64,000 bases of DNA, taken from positions 12,384 to 76,383 of the forward strand of contig VHDF01000011.1 in the NCBI GenBank assembly GCA_016871495.1, written 5' to 3'. The stretch comes from Verrucomicrobiota bacterium (GTDB lineage: Bacteria; Verrucomicrobiota; Verrucomicrobiia; Limisphaerales; VHDF01). Of this stretch, positions 8,190 to 63,232 are shown in pieces. The notes below the pieces were generated by a model. It saw nothing but the letters and a program-made list of their open reading frames with translations. It was not told where the DNA came from and ran no database searches. A program made the translations under genes and the position numbers. How positions within the stretch are numbered: position 1 is the first letter of the stretch; every line of letters starts with the position of its first letter.

Positions 8190-8268
8190 GCCGGGAGGAT
8201 CTGTTTTTGGCTTGAGTACTCCGGAACCGCGTCGATCTCAAGGCATTCCTGGAAGAGTGCCGCCGTGC

Positions 8269-8402
8269 CCGTGCATCCCGATGTTGTTGGTAGGGCGGGC
8301 CTGTCCCAGCCCGCCGCCCACGGGATGCAAAACATCATGCTCCGGCGGCGCGCCGGGACGGACGCGCCCTACCTGCATCACCGGCAACATCGGGATGCAC
8401 CG
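8269..8402. mobile_element. Family A MITE/REPIN (copy 1)
   Basis: 16-bp perfect TIR GTGCATCCCGATGTTG; two inverted GTAG-led palindromes inside; 9-bp direct repeat CCGCCGTGC at 8260-8268 and 8403-8411. Confidence 0.85.
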
Positions 8403-8410
8403 CCGCCGTG

Positions 8411-8622
8411 CGGCGTATCCAGAGGTTGTCGGTGACCGGGTTGTCGTGGTCACGCAGACAGCCCTGTCTGCTGTGGCGCAGGTTGCCCAGCCTGCGGGGC
8501 GACGAAGGGAACCACGGCTCGGGGAGATCACGGAAGGGCCTGGTTCTTCACCCGCCGGGCCGTCGGCGATACGGCAGGCTGGGCCGCCTGCGCCACACGA
8601 CAGACCACTTCGGGATACGTGC
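8411..8622. mobile_element. Family C MITE/REPIN (copy 1)
   Basis: Ends CGGCGTATCC / GGATACGTGC; inverted GTGG-CGCAGG..CCTGCG palindromes; homologous to 47548-47743, 13972-14039 and 20988-21206. Confidence 0.8.
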
Positions 8623-8681
8623 GCCGCCGTGTTCATGCCGGGCCGAGCGGAGATAGCCGAGGATCCCGCCTCGGCTTCACG

Positions 8682-12719: not shown

Positions 12720-13796
12720 ATGACCTCTTCAAAACCATCACGGGTGGCCATTATCGGAGCCACCGGTTATTCGGGTGAGGAACTCGTTCGCATTCTGCTC
12801 CATCATCCCGGTGTGGATTTGGCGCTCGTCACCTCGCGCCCGAACGCGGGCCAAACAGTGGCCCAAGTGTATCCCAAGTTCGCCCACCATCCCAAGGCGC
12901 GCAGCCTGAAGTTCGTTGAGCCCGACGCCGCGAAGGTGGCACGCGAGGCGGACCTTGCCTTCCTCGCGCTGCCCCACGGGGTCGCCGCCGAATATGCCTT
13001 GCCCCTGCTCGAAGCCGGCTGCCGGGTCATCGATCTCAGCGCGGATTTCAGGCTGCGCGACGCTCAAACGTACGAGGAATTCTACGGACACGAACATCCC
13101 GCCCCCGGCTGGCTGGAGAAAGCGGTTTACGGGCTGCCGGAGGTCTATCGTGACCAGATTCGCGAGGCTTCCTTGATCGCCTCCCCGGGATGTTATCCCA
13201 CCAGCATCCTGCTCCCGGTCCTTCCCTTGGTGCGCGACCGGCTGATCCATCCGTCGTCCGTGATTGCGAGTTCGATGAGCGGCGTCTCGGGAGCGGGGCG
13301 CAAAGCGGAGTTGGATTATTTGTTCTGCGAATGCAATGAAAGCGTTCGCGCCTACGGCGTGCCGAAGCACCGGCACCTCTCCGAAATCGAGCAGGAAATC
13401 AGCCTGGCCGCCGGCGAGAAAACCACCATTCAATTCGTTCCTCACCTCATCCCGGTCAACCGCGGCATCCATACCACGATCTACGCCGCCCCCGTGCCCG
13501 ATTTGCGCAGCCCGGAAGCGAGGGAAAATTTCGAGGCCGCCGTGAAAGCTTCCTGGAGCCAAGCCTACTCCAGCGAGCCCTTCGTGCGATTGCTGGACGG
13601 CAAGAATCTCCCCGATACCAAGAACGTCGTCGGCAGCAATCTCATCGACATAGCCTGCCGACTGGACGCCCGGACCGGACGCCTGCTGATCTTCAGCGCC
13701 GAGGACAACATCGTCAAAGGCGCCGGGGGCCAGGCCGTGCAAAGCATGAACATTCTTTGCGGACTTCCGGAAACCATGGGGTTGTTGGCCGGTTAA
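12720..13796 (+). CDS. argC: N-acetyl-gamma-glutamyl-phosphate reductase
   Basis: IIGATGYSGEEL, ALPHG, IDLSADFR, SPGCYPTS, SGVSGAGRK, DNIVKGAGGQAVQ. Confidence 0.97.
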   Translation: MTSSKPSRVAIIGATGYSGEELVRILLHHPGVDLALVTSRPNAGQTVAQVYPKFAHHPKARSLKFVEPDAAKVAREADLAFLALPHGVAAEYALPLLEAGCRVIDLSADFRLRDAQTYEEFYGHEHPAPGWLEKAVYGLPEVYRDQIREASLIASPGCYPTSILLPVLPLVRDRLIHPSSVIASSMSGVSGAGRKAELDYLFCECNESVRAYGVPKHRHLSEIEQEISLAAGEKTTIQFVPHLIPVNRGIHTTIYAAPVPDLRSPEARENFEAAVKASWSQAYSSEPFVRLLDGKNLPDTKNVVGSNLIDIACRLDARTGRLLIFSAEDNIVKGAGGQAVQSMNILCGLPETMGLLAG

Positions 13797-13828
13797 TTCA
13801 ATGCCCGGTCCTGGGGAACGAATGCGTT

Positions 13829-13962
13829 CCGTGCATCCCGATGTTGCCGGTGATGCAGGTAGGGCGCGTCCGTCCCGGCGCGCCGCCGGAGCATGATGTT
13901 TTGCATCCAGTGGGCGGCGGGCTGGGACAGGCCCGCCCTACCAACAACATCGGGATGCACCG
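13829..13962. mobile_element. Family A MITE/REPIN (copy 2, opposite orientation)
   Basis: Reverse complement of copy 1 with one mismatch seen; perfect 9-bp DR GAATGCGTT at 13820-13828 and 13963-13971. Confidence 0.85.
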
Positions 13963-13971
13963 GAATGCGTT

Positions 13972-14039
13972 CGGTGTATCCAAAGGTTGTCGGTGACCGG
14001 GTGGTCGTGGTCACGCAGACAACCCTGTCTGCTGTTGGC
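13972..14039. mobile_element. Family C element, left part only
   Basis: CGGTGTATCCAAAGGTTGTCGGTGACCGGG..CACGCAGACAACCCTGTCTGCTG matches the C left end and starts right after the 9-bp DR. Confidence 0.75.
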
Positions 14040-14067
14040 TGATTTCGTTGGAGTGAACCCATGAACA

Positions 14068-14180
14068 AGCCGGAGGCTTGCCAGCGATTAGCCGGTGGTT
14101 GCGCGAGGAACGAGCGCTACCACCGGATCACGGTTCGCAGTCAAGGCCGATCCCGGAGGGATCGCAGCGTCGTACGGCTG
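14068..14180. repeat. Multi-hairpin palindromic element (single copy in window)
   Basis: Hairpins AGCC-GGA-GGCT, CCGGTGG..CCACCGG and GATCCC-GGA-GGGATC; REP-like appearance. Confidence 0.4.
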
Positions 14181-14209
14181 CGGAATGACTCACCCCCTCG
14201 TAAACCCCG

Positions 14210-20987: not shown

Positions 20988-21206
20988 CAGTGCATCCCGA
21001 AAGTATCCGCGACCGGCTTGCCCTGGGAACTCAGACAGCCCCGTCTGCCGTGGCGCAGGTTGCCCAACCTGCGAAGGGGAGACGGGAACGAGGCGCTTTG
21101 GGTGAAGACCGCCGCCCAGGTTGTCGCCCGCCCCGCCGACGGGCAGTCGGCGAAACCGCGGGCTCAGCCGCCTGCATTACCCTGCCACCAACTTTGGGAT
21201 GCACCG
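20988..21206. mobile_element. Family C element, diverged copy
   Basis: Ends CAGTGCATCC / GGATGCACCG; CAGACAGCCCCGTCTGCCGTGGCGCAGGTTGCCCAACCTGCG core; no clear DR. Confidence 0.7.
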
Positions 21207-32565: not shown

Positions 32566-32793
32566 CAGTGCATCCACAGGTATCGGTGATGCGCGCGGCA
32601 CCGCCGAGGCAGCGGCGTTTACGCCGCTGCAGGGCGTGTCTTCAAGGGCATGTCAGGCTCAACAGGCAAGGGTGCTGCCGGGGCGAAGGCATCCACCCAG
32701 GGCGGGCCATAAAGCGGGAGGAGATCGCCGCGGCCGATGAGCGCGAGCGGAAGCACCGTGAACAGCGCGCCCCGACAACTTGCGGATGCACCG
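32566..32793. mobile_element. Family B MITE (copy 1)
   Basis: Ends CAGTGCATCC / GGATGCACCG; perfect 9-bp DR GGTTCCCGC at 32557-32565 and 32794-32802; homologous to 41457-41681 and 63003-63232. Confidence 0.85.
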
Positions 32794-41456: not shown

Positions 41457-41681
41457 CGGTGCATCCAGAGGTTTTCGGGGATGCGCGCGGCAGCGCCGGG
41501 GCGTTCACGCCGCTTCAGGGCGTGTCTTCAAAGGGGCATGACAGATTCAACGGGCAAGGGTGCTGCCAGGGCGAAGGCATTCACCCACGGCGGGCCATGG
41601 AGCGGGAGGAGATCGCCGCGGCAGGTTGGCGCGAGCGGAAGCGCCGTGAACGGCGCGCCCCCACAACTTGCGGATGCACCG
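41457..41681. mobile_element. Family B MITE (copy 2)
   Basis: Ends CGGTGCATCC / GGATGCACCG; no direct repeat, flanks extend the inversion (GCCCCG / CGGGGC). Confidence 0.85.
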
Positions 41682-47435: not shown

Positions 47436-47547
47436 GGATGAGTGGAGTGAAGCGTGGGAAGTGTAGCAGCGACGAGTCTCGAAAACAGGCTTTTCTTGGT
47501 CACGGCCCCGCAGCGATCGTCCCCCCGGCGAGCAGGAAGATCGGGAC

Positions 47548-47743
47548 AGGTGCCTCCAGAGGTTGTCGGTGACCCGCTTGTCGTGGTCACGCAGACAGCC
47601 CTGTCTGCTGTGGCGCAGGCTGCCCAACCTGCGGGGCGACGAAGAGACCAGGCGCGTGGAGAGCATGGAAGGGCCTCGTTCTTCACCCGCCGGGCCGACT
47701 GCCAGCCTGCGCTGCAATACTGAGAAAGCTTCGGGATGCACCG
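47548..47743. mobile_element. Family C element
   Basis: Ends AGGTGCCTCC / GGATGCACCG; DR GATCGGGAC at 47539-47547 and 47744-47752. Confidence 0.8.
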
Positions 47744-47752
47744 GATCGGGAC

Positions 47753-47886
47753 CGGTGCATCCCGATGTTGCCGGTGATGCAGGTAGGGCGCGTCCGTCCC
47801 GGCGCGCCGCCGGAGCATGATGTTTTGCATCCCGTGGGCGGCGGGCTGGGACAGGCCCGCCCTACCAACAACATCGGGATACACGA
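47753..47886. mobile_element. Family A element (copy 3)
   Basis: Near-identical to copies 1 and 2; followed by GATCGGGAA (47887-47895). Confidence 0.85.
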
Positions 47887-48012
47887 GATCGGGAATTGCA
47901 GAGCAACGGTTTCTTGCATGCGCGGTTCGGGGGGAACAAGCTCAGCTCATTCATGAAATACTGTCGGAGGACGCTCGCCTTTTGCGGTCGCATGATTCGA
48001 ATCCGATAGCCG

Positions 48013-49296
48013 GTGTTCGCGAGGCGAGTCGGTGGGGCGGTCTTGCTGGCCAGGATGGTCTGTTGCGTTCAGGCAGGGCTTGACCTGCCCTTCTCACTTT
48101 CACCCGCGCTGGAACAGGAGATTTTGCGTCCTGCCTTCGTGGATGCACTGACGGGCGGGACTCCCATCCTGCCCGCGGTGACGAACTTGACTCAGCTGAA
48201 AGCCCGGCTGGACGAATTACTGATTTCACCCCATGGATTCACGAACGCTTATGAAGATCTTTCGATTCAAGAAGCGGTTTACGAGCGCATGCTTTATGGC
48301 AGCACCACGGAACGCTGCCGGGTTGATTTCACGTTTGGAAAACGCCTTTCGGCTCATGCCTATGTGAAGCGGGCCGAACGGGGTTCGGAATCTCCTCGAC
48401 TGGCCATCCTGCTCATCCCGGGAAGCGGCTTCAATCAGTCCTCCGCGATCGCCAGGATGGATCGCCTGAATTACCATGGGGCCATTCTCGGGGAGATCGC
48501 TCCCTATGGCGACGCCTACGTCCTCGTGAAACCCAATGAGGATTTCCTGGCGATTCACAACGGCACGAACAAGCTGAGTTACAATTTCATCTACACCGGT
48601 TTGATTGACCAGGGAGGGACTTACTCCGGGTTGTATCTCATCCAGGCTCTGGCGCTCTGCAAACATCTCCAAGCCCAGTATGACAGGCTCGTCATCATGG
48701 GCTTGTCACAAGGGGGCGCCGCGGCGCTGCTCGTCGCGCTCCAAGCCAGGCCCACCGGCGCCATGGTCGCCTCCGGCTACAGCATCTTGCTGCAGCAAAT
48801 CCAATGGGCCGGCAGCAACCAAATCATGATCCCCAATATCGACGTTTGGTATGCGCGGGATCGAATCCGGGACCTGATGCTCCTTTCCAGAACCCAATTC
48901 TTGTTCACCTGGGGGCGAGCGGAAACCAACTACTACAAAATTGAAGCGGAGACCGGACTGACGTCAGCCTACTTCAAGTCGGTTCCCAATTACCAATCTG
49001 CCGTCCACCCCGCCGGGCATGAGTTTTCCTTCACCGAGGTCGCGGGATTCTTGAACAAGATGGTTCGTGCCTTGAGTCTCCGGGGAACAAGTTCGCAATC
49101 CACAGGAAAGGATTTTCGGATGTCCTGGTCCGGGCTTGTCACCGGCGCCACGTACGAATTGCAATACTCGCCGGACCTGGTGCAGTGGAAAAAGGTGAGA
49201 CGTTGGTCGCAAGAGGAGAACGCCCGCTCCGTTGACCTGATCGAGAACGCTGGCAGTGTCCAGGGCTTTTACAGGTTGCTCGAAACGGCTCCGTAA
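48013..49296 (+). CDS. Secreted alpha/beta-hydrolase-like protein with C-terminal PVC-type FYRL module
   Basis: Signal-like N-terminus; LLIPGSG, MGLSQGG nucleophile elbow, late HPAGHEF; tail YELQYSPDLVQW...GFYRL. Confidence 0.75.
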   Translation: MFARRVGGAVLLARMVCCVQAGLDLPFSLSPALEQEILRPAFVDALTGGTPILPAVTNLTQLKARLDELLISPHGFTNAYEDLSIQEAVYERMLYGSTTERCRVDFTFGKRLSAHAYVKRAERGSESPRLAILLIPGSGFNQSSAIARMDRLNYHGAILGEIAPYGDAYVLVKPNEDFLAIHNGTNKLSYNFIYTGLIDQGGTYSGLYLIQALALCKHLQAQYDRLVIMGLSQGGAAALLVALQARPTGAMVASGYSILLQQIQWAGSNQIMIPNIDVWYARDRIRDLMLLSRTQFLFTWGRAETNYYKIEAETGLTSAYFKSVPNYQSAVHPAGHEFSFTEVAGFLNKMVRALSLRGTSSQSTGKDFRMSWSGLVTGATYELQYSPDLVQWKKVRRWSQEENARSVDLIENAGSVQGFYRLLETAP

Positions 49297-63002: not shown

Positions 63003-63232
63003 CGGTGCATCCAGAAGGGGTCGGTGATACGTGCGGCAGCGCCGGGGCACGGCGTTCACGCCGCTTCAGGGCGTGTCTTCAAAGGGGCATGCCAGCTTCA
63101 ACGGGCAAGGGTGCTGCCAGGGCGAAGGCATTCACCCAGGGCGGGCCATGGACCGGGAGGAGATCGCCGCAGCAGATTGGCGCGAGCGGAAGCGCCGCGA
63201 ACGGCGCGCCCCTACACCTTGCGGATGCTCCG
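63003..63232. mobile_element. Family B MITE (copy 3)
   Basis: Ends CGGTGCATCC / GGATGCTCCG; flanks GTCCAGCAG / GTCAGCAG (DR with a 1-nt indel). Confidence 0.85.

What the first reader, a model, noticed from the sequence alone, without database searches (positions are those of the whole stretch)
47539..47895. Growing arrays of modular mini-elements: DR-element-DR-element-DR with a shared terminal repeat and swappable REP cargo
Seen: GATCGGGAC, family C element, GATCGGGAC, family A element, GATCGGGAA. The two elements have unrelated interiors but share the ~10-bp end CGGTGCATCC...GGATGCACCG. The 9-mer between them equals the 9-mer outside. The same design recurs at 8.3 kb and 13.9 kb with a different 9-mer, order and orientation each time, so A+C is not one fixed composite. 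Known: 9-bp duplications are typical of DDE transposases (IS4 subgroups IS10/IS50, IS256/ISLre2, IS1), whereas GTRG-led palindrome doublets are RAYT/HUH-associated REPINs. Inference: one trans-acting enzyme mobilises several REPIN cargos through a common end and re-inserts flush against an existing element, duplicating its flank each time. That would be iterative array growth, reminiscent of CRISPR or integron accretion. I know no named system with this combination.
Basis: partly seen in the sequence, partly recalled or inferred. Interest (0 to 1): 0.85.

Follow-up and report, generated by a model that had tools for sequence, protein, structure and literature searches.

The report
Promoter-homing miniature transposons stacked in arrays
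The repeat–element–repeat–element–repeat arrays are real. They form because small non-coding transposons of an ISKra4-like family land 27 bases upstream of a promoter-like TTG box, so later arrivals at the same box re-duplicate the same 9 bases and stack up; this is a by-product of a known targeting habit, not a new accretion system.

Summary
At 47539-47895 the order is GATCGGGAC, a 196-bp element, GATCGGGAC, a 134-bp element, GATCGGGAA. Genome-wide, about 480 insertions share a ~25-nt terminal inverted repeat and make exact 9-bp target duplications. Forty-three sites carry two or three elements spaced by about 9 bp.

The cause is not attraction to a resident element. Elements sit with a TTG(aca) -35-like box exactly 27 bp beyond one end (170 of 594 flanks, against about 9 at other offsets). 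In mixed arrays with 9-bp gaps, the young family A (99% identical copies) is always on the TTG side and the old element (about 90%) is distal (16:0). Site occupancy (393 single, 41 double, 2 triple) fits chance re-use of roughly 1,900-2,400 equally likely targets.

A 2.2-kb insertion sequence with the same ends was found in a related Verrucomicrobium. It encodes a DruA-like protein and an ISKra4-type transposase. None is present in this assembly.

One unexpected result: adjacent elements never have related interiors (0 of 45 pairs, 10 expected). Same-family tandems probably collapse by recombination.

The RAYT/REPIN reading is not supported. Verdict: a variant of known promoter-homing ISKra4 elements, of moderate interest.

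The parts
47539..47547 (.). 9-mer copy 1 (GATCGGGAC), distal target duplication of the older C-type element
47548..47743 (+). C-type MITE, 196 bp. Left end AGGTGCCTCC... is decayed; right end ...GGATGCACCG is intact. Older family: top-5 identity to other copies 89.1%.
47744..47752 (.). 9-mer copy 2 (GATCGGGAC), shared by both elements. It was the promoter-proximal duplication of C and later served as the target of A.
47753..47886 (+). Family A foldback MITE, 134 bp. About 141-163 copies; top-5 identity 100% for this copy. Its TTGTTGGTA-type end faces the TTG box.
47887..47895 (.). 9-mer copy 3 (GATCGGGAA, one mismatch)
47914..47919 (+). TTGCAT, a -35-like box starting exactly 27 bp beyond the end of A (18 bp beyond the 9-mer). 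After a 17-nt spacer comes a weak -10-like CAAGCT at 47937-47942. An ORF starts at 48013 (+).
   Evidence: the strict consensus scan finds no textbook promoter here
8260..8632 (.). Second array: CCGCCGTGC (8260-8268), A (8269-8402), CCGCCGTGC (8403-8411), C-type (8412-8623), CCGCCGTGT (8624-8632). TTGAGA lies on the minus strand at 8236-8241, 27 bp beyond the A end.
13820..14035 (.). Third array: GAATGCGTT (13820-13828), A (13829-13962), GAATGCGTT (13963-13971), C-type truncated at about 14035. TTGAAT lies on the minus strand at 13796-13801, 27 bp beyond the A end.
20988..21206 (+). Solo 219-bp element (D/C-type) with the same ends
32566..32793 (+). Solo B-type element, 228 bp, with a perfect 9-bp duplication GGTTCCCGC
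41457..41681 (+). Solo B-type element, 225 bp
63003..63232 (+). Solo B-type element, 230 bp; its duplication carries a 1-nt indel

Best explanation
The arrays are stacks of independent insertions of miniature inverted-repeat transposable elements (MITEs). All carry the ~25-nt ends of an ISKra4-like, Mutator-type DDE insertion sequence. The transposase, supplied in trans and not present in this assembly, places an element so that its end lies 27 bp upstream of a -35-like TTG box, with a 9-bp staggered cut. Nothing on the far side of the target is read. A site that already holds an element therefore stays a full target. The next arrival cuts the same 9 bp (the copy next to the TTG box) and duplicates it again, giving T-old-T-new-T-18 bp-TTG.

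Stacking is therefore polar, with the newest element nearest the TTG box, and its frequency is set by chance re-use of a limited set of promoter-like targets. Same-family neighbours are missing, most likely because homologous tandems collapse to one copy by slippage or recombination.

Shown here: the ends, the 9-bp duplication, the 27-bp register, the polarity, the occupancy statistics and the existence of a parent-type IS. Inferred: that this transposase mobilises the MITEs, that the TTG box acts as a promoter, and how same-family tandems are lost.
For: 1. TTG sits at outward offset 27 in 170 of 594 flanks, against about 9 at other offsets. The logo is TTGaca, a 17-nt spacer, then A/T at positions 2 and 6 of a -10-like hexamer. 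There is no information in the 9-mer or on the far side.
2. 60% of solo A and 55% of solo non-A elements have an exact TTG on exactly one side (background 1.7% per position). A lies in both orientations, 27:28.
3. A copies are 99.3% identical (median of top 5) and 68% have perfect duplications. Non-A copies are 90.8% identical and 19% have perfect duplications.
4. In mixed arrays with 9-bp gaps the TTG side is A in 16 and non-A in 0 (p=3e-5). In arrays of two complete elements the proximal one is younger in 10 of 12.
5. Occupancy of 393/41/2 sites matches Poisson expectation of 394/39/2.6 for about 2,400 targets. The estimate falls to about 1,900 if same-family pairs are invisible. My crude count of gene starts preceded by a gap is 1,600-1,850.
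6. The TTG register wobbles (offset 26 in 19, 27 in 186, 28 in 6). This predicts the observed 8- and 10-bp junctions with duplications shifted by one base, for example C5:29125.
7. L161, from a genome of the same order, holds a 2,197-bp IS with ends scoring 36.9 and 27.0 bits on my matrix. ORF1 matches DruA/PF14236 (8.6e-30). ORF2 matches the ISKra4 transposase model NF033572 (1.8e-52).
8. The 27-bp register recurs in other Verrucomicrobial MAGs with these ends: 24, 14, 19 and 6 matches at spacing 27, against 6, 2, 6 and 0 at spacing 25.
9. Published precedent: ISKra4-group elements with near-perfect IRs insert upstream of sigma-A promoters in both orientations, with 8-9-bp duplications (PMC3942029).
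Against: No ISKra4-type transposase is in this 97%-complete assembly, so mobilisation by it is inferred from shared ends. L161 scores below the NCBIfam equivalog cut-off (179 against 205 bits) and has no visible duplication.

The register is 27 bp, not the published 13-17 bp.

Evidence that the TTG box is a working promoter is indirect. At this locus the -10 is poor and the strict scan finds nothing. With my crude gene calls, a gene points away on the TTG side in 64% of sites, against 55% on the other side. No RNA data were available.

About 40% of elements and 11 of 27 gap-9 mixed arrays show no exact TTG.

Two arrays (C10:58007, C13:10357) have A distal to an exact TTG, with gaps of 8 and 11 bp and unequal outer 9-mers.

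A-with-non-A co-occupancy (36) is 1.1-1.7 times the uniform expectation, depending on the number of targets. Some extra attraction, or hot targets, cannot be excluded.

No empty or intermediate allele was found.
Confidence: 0.75

Rival explanations
1. End-homing: the transposase, or a transposase-bound resident end, attracts the incoming element. The newcomer then inserts flush against an existing element and re-duplicates its flank, independent of anything else. IR-targeting by IS30 and IS21 would be the precedent.
For: Junctions are spaced by exactly 9 bp. One end of A carries TTG at positions 19-21, which places a TTG exactly 27 bp from a neighbour across a 9-bp spacer (rows such as AAGTACGTT CCGTGTATCCCGATGTTG TTGGTA). 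A-with-non-A co-occupancy is somewhat above the uniform expectation if there are 2,400 targets or more.
Against: Polarity is absolute in gap-9 arrays: the young element is on the TTG side 16:0, whereas end-homing predicts either side. The TTG-bearing end of A faces the neighbour in only about 10 of 30 arrays by my own count from the table, so mimicry is not the driver. The number of arrays needs no extra attraction. Solo flanks show no signal other than the TTG box.
Confidence: 0.1
2. Each A+C pair is one composite element that transposes as a unit.
For: One clear case exists. At C61:1666 a 230-bp and a 219-bp element are separated by GAACTACAG, but both are flanked outside by ATTTTGGGG. The inner 9-mer differs from the outer at 5 or more positions in 8 comparisons.
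Against: In most arrays the inner 9-mer equals the locus-specific outer 9-mer (0-2 mismatches in 34 of 45). A travelling composite cannot produce that. Order, orientation and partners also vary.
Confidence: 0.04
3. Arrays arise by unequal crossing-over or slippage between the 9-bp repeats, or they are an assembly artefact.
For: Direct repeats can drive duplication, and short-read MAGs mis-assemble repeats (45 ends lie within 250 bp of contig ends).
Against: Duplication would give same-family tandems, yet 0 of 45 adjacent pairs are related. Several of the genome's A-to-C-type array junction sequences (for example the 13.9-kb one) are present in independent Logan contigs from several lake metagenomes.
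Confidence: 0.02
4. The elements are RAYT-mobilised REPINs that merely acquired inverted-repeat ends.
For: A's interior is a pair of inverted GTAG-headed hairpins. Five Y1_Tnp homologues exist in the genome. A separate ~130-bp GTAGGCC-hairpin doublet family does occur on its own, about 50 times.
Against: A's arms occur almost only inside A (122-143 inside against 15-32 outside, the latter probably fragments). There are exact 9-bp duplications and 25-nt inverted ends. The best Y1_Tnp gene is not flanked by these repeats.
Confidence: 0.03

Closest known systems
ISKra4 group of the ISKra4 family (p-MULT 4, prokaryotic Mutator-like DDE transposases; Guerillot et al. 2014, PMC3942029)
   Same: Inverted repeats of 18-39 bp beginning with C, and 8-9-bp duplications. 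Insertion lies upstream of sigma-A-type promoters, in both orientations when the two IRs are nearly identical. Some members carry an extra gene. The parent-type IS found here (L161) hits the ISKra4 transposase model at 1.8e-52.
   Different: The register is 27 bp from the element end to the -35-like box, not 13-17 bp. The transposase scores below the equivalog cut-off. A DruA-like ORF1 is present. The elements here are non-coding derivatives at very high copy number (about 480 in 5 Mb). I found no published description of stacked arrays that reiterate the duplication.
TnGBS conjugative elements and ISLre2 insertion sequences (p-MULT 3)
   Same: A DDE transposase inserts at a fixed distance (15-17 bp) upstream of the -35 box of sigma-A promoters, so genes are not disrupted.
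   Different: Different transposase clade (ISLre2 model only 8.5e-16). Insertion is oriented and the register is shorter. These are large autonomous elements, not MITEs.
Tandem (IS)2 dimers and IR-targeting of IS30, IS21 and IS911 (from my own knowledge; Kiss and Olasz 1999 is cited in PMC3942029)
   Same: Two element ends abut and are separated by a few base pairs. This also resembles the circle junction of Mutator-like IS, whose IRs are separated by 6-10 bp.
   Different: Those junctions join two copies of the same element and arise from the transposition chemistry. Here the neighbours are always heterologous, each has its own duplication, and placement follows the TTG box.
REPINs mobilised by RAYT (HUH/Y1) transposases
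   Same: The interior of A and the insert of the 355-bp subfamily are inverted pairs of GTAG-headed hairpins.
   Different: The elements have 25-nt terminal inverted repeats and 9-bp duplications. A's arms are not found free, and no RAYT is flanked by them.
CRISPR spacer acquisition, integron cassette capture, and Tn7 at attTn7 (functional analogies only)
   Same: Additions are polar at one defined point next to a promoter or leader, so order reflects age.
   Different: There is no dedicated array, leader or attI and no adaptive read-out. Stacking occurs at chance frequency, and unlike Tn7, Mu or Tn3 there is no sign of target immunity toward heterologous residents.

Membership tests
MITE (non-autonomous DDE-transposon derivative) | Small, non-coding, terminal inverted repeats, target-site duplication, many copies | tested here: met
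   Sizes of 77-388 bp, with main classes at 134, 219 and 230 bp. A ~25-nt TIR, an exact 9-bp duplication, and about 300 complete copies plus about 190 orphan ends.
ISKra4 group (p-MULT 4) | IRs of 18-39 bp with a terminal C, and 8-9-bp direct repeats | tested here: met
   the criterion comes from PMC3942029.
ISKra4 group (p-MULT 4) | An autonomous element with the same ends encoding an ISKra4-family transposase | tested here: inconclusive
   Absent from this genome. It was found in another genome of the same order: L161, 2,197 bp, NF033572 at 1.8e-52 but 179 bits, under the 205-bit cut-off. A 1,519-bp variant is L159. Short high-depth contigs about 82% identical to parts of that transposase are present in the lake metagenomes.
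ISKra4 group (p-MULT 4) | Insertion 13-17 bp upstream of a sigma-A promoter | tested here: not met
   A promoter-like TTGaca-17-TAnnnT motif is present, but at 27 bp from the element end. This is about one helical turn further than published.
ISKra4 group (p-MULT 4) | Both orientations relative to the promoter when the IRs are nearly identical | tested here: met
   A orientation is 27:28.
REPIN/RAYT system | REP doublets dispersed on their own, no target duplication, and a cognate RAYT gene flanked by REPs | tested here: not met
End-targeting tandem IS (IS30/IS21 type) | Insertion directed by a resident element's end, independent of other flanking sequence | tested here: not met
   Polarity of 16:0 toward the TTG box and chance-level array frequency.
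Dedicated accretion systems (CRISPR, integron) | A specific acquisition site with its own machinery and more arrays than chance predicts | tested here: not met
   Poisson fit of the 393/41/2 site occupancy. Arrays are scattered over 43 different promoter-like sites.

The most novel reading that the evidence does not exclude
The stacks may be more than a chance by-product. This PVC lineage of ISKra4-like elements (two genes, with a DruA-like partner) would read promoters one helical turn further upstream than any described relative. It would tolerate unlimited re-use of a target, and the stacks would be filtered by a homology-dependent process (collapse or self-exclusion) so that only heterologous neighbours survive. 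The stacks would then be ordered records of successive transposition bursts. Their IR-9 bp-IR junctions, which mimic the circle junction of Mutator-like IS, could let whole stacks move as new composite MITEs (as at C61) and so generate the 'swappable cargo' families.
Probability: 0.2. Interest if true: 0.55.

Novelty: new variant of a known kind. Interest (0 to 1): 0.36.

Why it matters
The finding shows, from sequence alone, that target choice by this transposase is read entirely from the promoter side and that no target immunity operates. It gives a natural age-ordered record of transposition bursts: old C/B families first, then family A. Roughly one promoter-like target in five in a free-living lake Verrucomicrobium has a MITE parked 27 bp upstream of its -35-like box, which could uncouple promoters from upstream regulators on a genome-wide scale. 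For annotation, it warns that element-repeat-element arrays with reiterated duplications need not signal a new accretion mechanism.

Tried and rejected
1. A long element with these ends in the same genome: none found, and no ISKra4 transposase.
2. The twenty best ISKra4 loci from 150 genomes of the order: none carried these ends, only family-like GGGTGCA.../GGGCGCATC... ends.
3. A scan of genome contigs with a 15-base end pattern: mostly chance hits plus MITE-like pairs in Verrucomicrobia, including Akkermansia MAGs. No IS was found in the loci I inspected.
4. Empty or intermediate alleles. The genome is the only member of its family in the collection. Lake-metagenome contigs are occupied or break inside the repeats. 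An exact-pattern scan of metagenome contigs for the right flank gave nothing.
5. Arrays in other genomes: none among 400 genomes of the phylum. One 16-bp junction occurred in seven MAGs that have these ends.
6. Rfam: only sub-threshold generic hairpin hits.
7. RNA evidence for the promoter: no runs available.
8. Positional bias of mismatches within the 9-mers: none.
9. Immunity from intact resident ends: non-A ends next to an A are as well preserved as solo ends (29.0 against 26.3 bits, p=0.29).
10. The idea that the 355-bp elements are fused A+C stacks: rejected. They are C-type elements with a nested copy of a different ~130-bp repeat.

Full report
**What is there.** The stretch 47539-47895 reads GATCGGGAC, a 196-bp element, GATCGGGAC, a 134-bp element, GATCGGGAA. 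The two elements have unrelated interiors but share inverted ends. The conserved end is about 25 nt (CGGTGCATCCnGAnGTTGyCGGTGA), not 10 nt. The arrays at 8.3 kb (three 9-mers, the last with one mismatch) and 13.9 kb (two 9-mers, because the C element is truncated) are also real.

**Scale in the genome.** The window is C11:12384-76383 of a 5.05-Mb, 201-contig, 60.7% GC assembly from lake water. A 26-nt end matrix finds 769 ends at >=14 bits, against 8 in reversed sequence. These resolve into about 300 complete elements and about 190 orphan ends. The main sizes are 134 bp (family A), 219 bp and 230 bp. The duplication is exactly 9 bp: 124 of 304 pairs are perfect and 66 have one mismatch, while 8-, 10- and 11-mers and control 9-mers do not match. 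These are MITEs of a DDE transposon.

**Arrays are a genome-wide feature.** Ends that face each other are separated by exactly 9 bp in 21 of 32 junctions (strict core) or 47 junctions (looser core). Chaining gives 393 single sites, 41 doubles and 2 triples. The inner 9-mer equals the neighbouring outer 9-mer with 0, 1 or 2 mismatches in 19, 7 and 8 comparisons. Most arrays were therefore built in place. One was not: at C61:1666 a 230-bp and a 219-bp element are separated by GAACTACAG but flanked on both sides by ATTTTGGGG. That stack later moved as a unit.

**What sets the insertion point.** Pooling all flanks, the only information outside the element is CAA at -30 to -28, which is TTG read outward at offset 27. 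TTG occupies that offset in 170 of 594 flanks, against about 9 elsewhere. The aligned flanks give TTGaca, a 17-nt spacer, then enrichment of A and T at positions 2 and 6 of a -10-like hexamer. An exact TTG lies on exactly one side of 60% of solo A and 55% of solo non-A elements (background 1.7% per position). A occurs in both orientations, 27:28. The register is sharp: 186 at offset 27, 19 at 26 and 6 at 28. The same register is seen with these ends in four other Verrucomicrobial MAGs (24, 14, 19 and 6 matches at spacing 27, against 6, 2, 6 and 0 at spacing 25). In all three arrays of this window a TTGnnn box lies 27 bp beyond the A end: TTGCAT at 47914, TTGAGA at 8236-8241(-) and TTGAAT at 13796-13801(-).

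**Why arrays form.** If only the TTG side is read, an occupied site stays a target, and a newcomer re-cuts the 9 bp next to the box. This predicts polarity by age.
- Family A is young: median top-5 identity 99.3% and 68% perfect duplications. The other families are old: 90.8% and 19%.
- In mixed arrays with 9-bp gaps and a recognisable TTG, A is on the TTG side 16 times and the old element never (p=3e-5).
- Among arrays of two complete elements, the proximal one is younger in 10 of 12.
- At 47.5 kb the order C then A then TTGCAT fits: C arrived first, and A then entered between C and the box.
- The small wobble of the register explains junctions of 8 or 10 bp with duplications shifted by one base (C5:29125).

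**How often arrays form.** With 481 recognisable insertions at 436 sites, a uniform model gives about 2,400 targets and predicts 394/39/2.6 single, double and triple sites, against 393/41/2 observed. Allowing for the invisible same-family pairs (below) lowers the estimate to about 1,900. My crude count of gene starts preceded by a 40-60-bp gap is 1,600-1,850. No extra attraction to resident elements is needed. A-with-non-A co-occupancy (36) is 1.1-1.7 times expectation over that range, so hot targets or a weak extra pull cannot be excluded. The possibility that A's own end mimics a -35 box is not the driver. That end has TTG at positions 19-21, exactly 27 bp from a neighbour across 9 bp, but it faces the neighbour in only about 10 of 30 arrays (my count).

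**An unexpected result.** None of the 45 adjacent pairs has related interiors, although 22.9% of random pairs do (10.3 expected, P=8e-6). A-A pairs are expected 5-8 times and seen 0 times. Short-read collapse alone is an unlikely cause. No A-end/9 nt/A-start junction appears among about 200 A-bearing Logan contigs in each of four metagenomes, although contigs can miss rare forms. Immunity through intact ends is also unlikely: old ends next to an A are as well preserved as solo ends, and all families share the same ends. The simplest reading is that homologous tandems collapse to one copy by slippage or recombination.

**The enzyme.** This assembly has no ISKra4-type transposase. A genome of the same order has a 2,197-bp element (L161) with matching ends (CCGTGCATCCCGAAGTTGTTGGTGAT and CGGTGCATCCCTAAGTTGGCGGTAGG; 36.9 and 27.0 bits). 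It has two genes: a 289-aa DruA-like protein (PF14236, 8.6e-30) and a 414-aa ISKra4-type transposase (NF033572, 1.8e-52, 179 bits, under the 205-bit cut-off). A MAG from another study has an identical end followed by the start of a similar ORF1, at several contig edges. Lake metagenomes that hold this genome also hold short, high-depth contigs about 82% identical to parts of that transposase. The autonomous partner may therefore simply be unbinned.

**Published background.** Guerillot et al. 2014 report that ISKra4-group elements with near-perfect IRs insert upstream of sigma-A promoters in both orientations and make 8-9-bp repeats. They also report that Mutator-like IS move through circles whose IRs are 6-10 bp apart. 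The register here, 27 bp, is about one helical turn longer than their 13-17 bp.

**Cargo.** Family A's GTAG-headed arms occur almost only inside A, and the best Y1-transposase gene is not flanked by such repeats. The RAYT/REPIN reading therefore fails. The 355-bp subfamily is a C-type element with a nested copy of a different ~130-bp hairpin-pair repeat that also occurs alone about 50 times. These 355-bp copies have their own perfect 9-bp duplications.

**Limits.** Promoter function of the TTG box is inferred. At this locus the -10 is weak and a strict scan finds nothing. My crude gene-orientation test is only suggestive (64% against 55%). No RNA data exist. No empty or intermediate allele was found. 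Two arrays break the polarity rule and are unexplained.

**Earlier notes of this scan.** These had already proposed ISKra4-like MITEs homing 27 bp upstream of promoters. I re-derived the register, the duplication and the parent IS independently. I added the polarity, occupancy and heterologous-only results.

**Verdict.** The proposed new accretion mechanism is replaced by chance re-use of promoter-defined targets by a variant of a known transposon family.

Noticed in passing
genome contig C61:1666-2124 (outside the window): A stack of a 230-bp and a 219-bp element with inner 9-mer GAACTACAG is flanked on both sides by ATTTTGGGG. The whole stack has transposed as a composite using its outer ends.
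   Followed up: partly
genome contigs, e.g. C1:1200-1400, C116:11390-11560; nested copies in C22:12841-13196 and C25:7929-8284: A second repeat family of about 130 bp and about 50 copies. It has an inverted pair of GTAGGCC-headed hairpins, ends like TTCATACTGAGC.../...GCATGAAATA, and is flanked by CTAG/CTAA-like tetramers. A copy nested in a C-type MITE created the 355-bp subfamily, which then spread with its own 9-bp duplications.
   Followed up: partly
window 14036-14200: The C-type element of the 13.9-kb array is cut off at about 14035 by another repeated sequence (...CCGGTGGTTGCGCGAGGAACGAGCGCTACCACCGG...CCCGGAGGGATCGC...). A similar motif lies next to the Y1_Tnp gene on contig C176.
   Followed up: no
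L161:620-1489 (IS from a genome of the same order): The parent-type IS carries a DruA-like (PF14236, Druantia DruA/DUF4338) ORF upstream of and overlapping the transposase gene. Its role is unknown; target selection is one possibility.
   Followed up: no
lake metagenome runs X1 and X3, laid on L161:1747-1865 and 2119-2159: Short contigs at 380-444x depth (this genome is at 47x and 22x) are about 82% identical to parts of the ISKra4-like transposase. They may be an unbinned multi-copy autonomous IS in the same community.
   Followed up: no
L040, L042, L097 (Akkermansia muciniphila MAG contigs): Pairs of ends matching this TIR matrix lie 148-164 bp apart, so MITE-like elements of the same lineage appear to be present in gut Akkermansia MAGs.
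   Followed up: no
whole genome: About 436 of an estimated 1,900-2,400 promoter-like targets (roughly one in five) carry at least one of these MITEs 27 bp upstream of the TTG box.
   Followed up: partly
genome contigs C10:58007-58368 and C13:10357-10720: In two arrays the young A lies on the side away from an exact TTG box. The gaps are 8 and 11 bp and the outer 9-mers do not match. They may involve a second, divergent target (TTTCCA at offset 27 in C10) or later rearrangement.
   Followed up: partly
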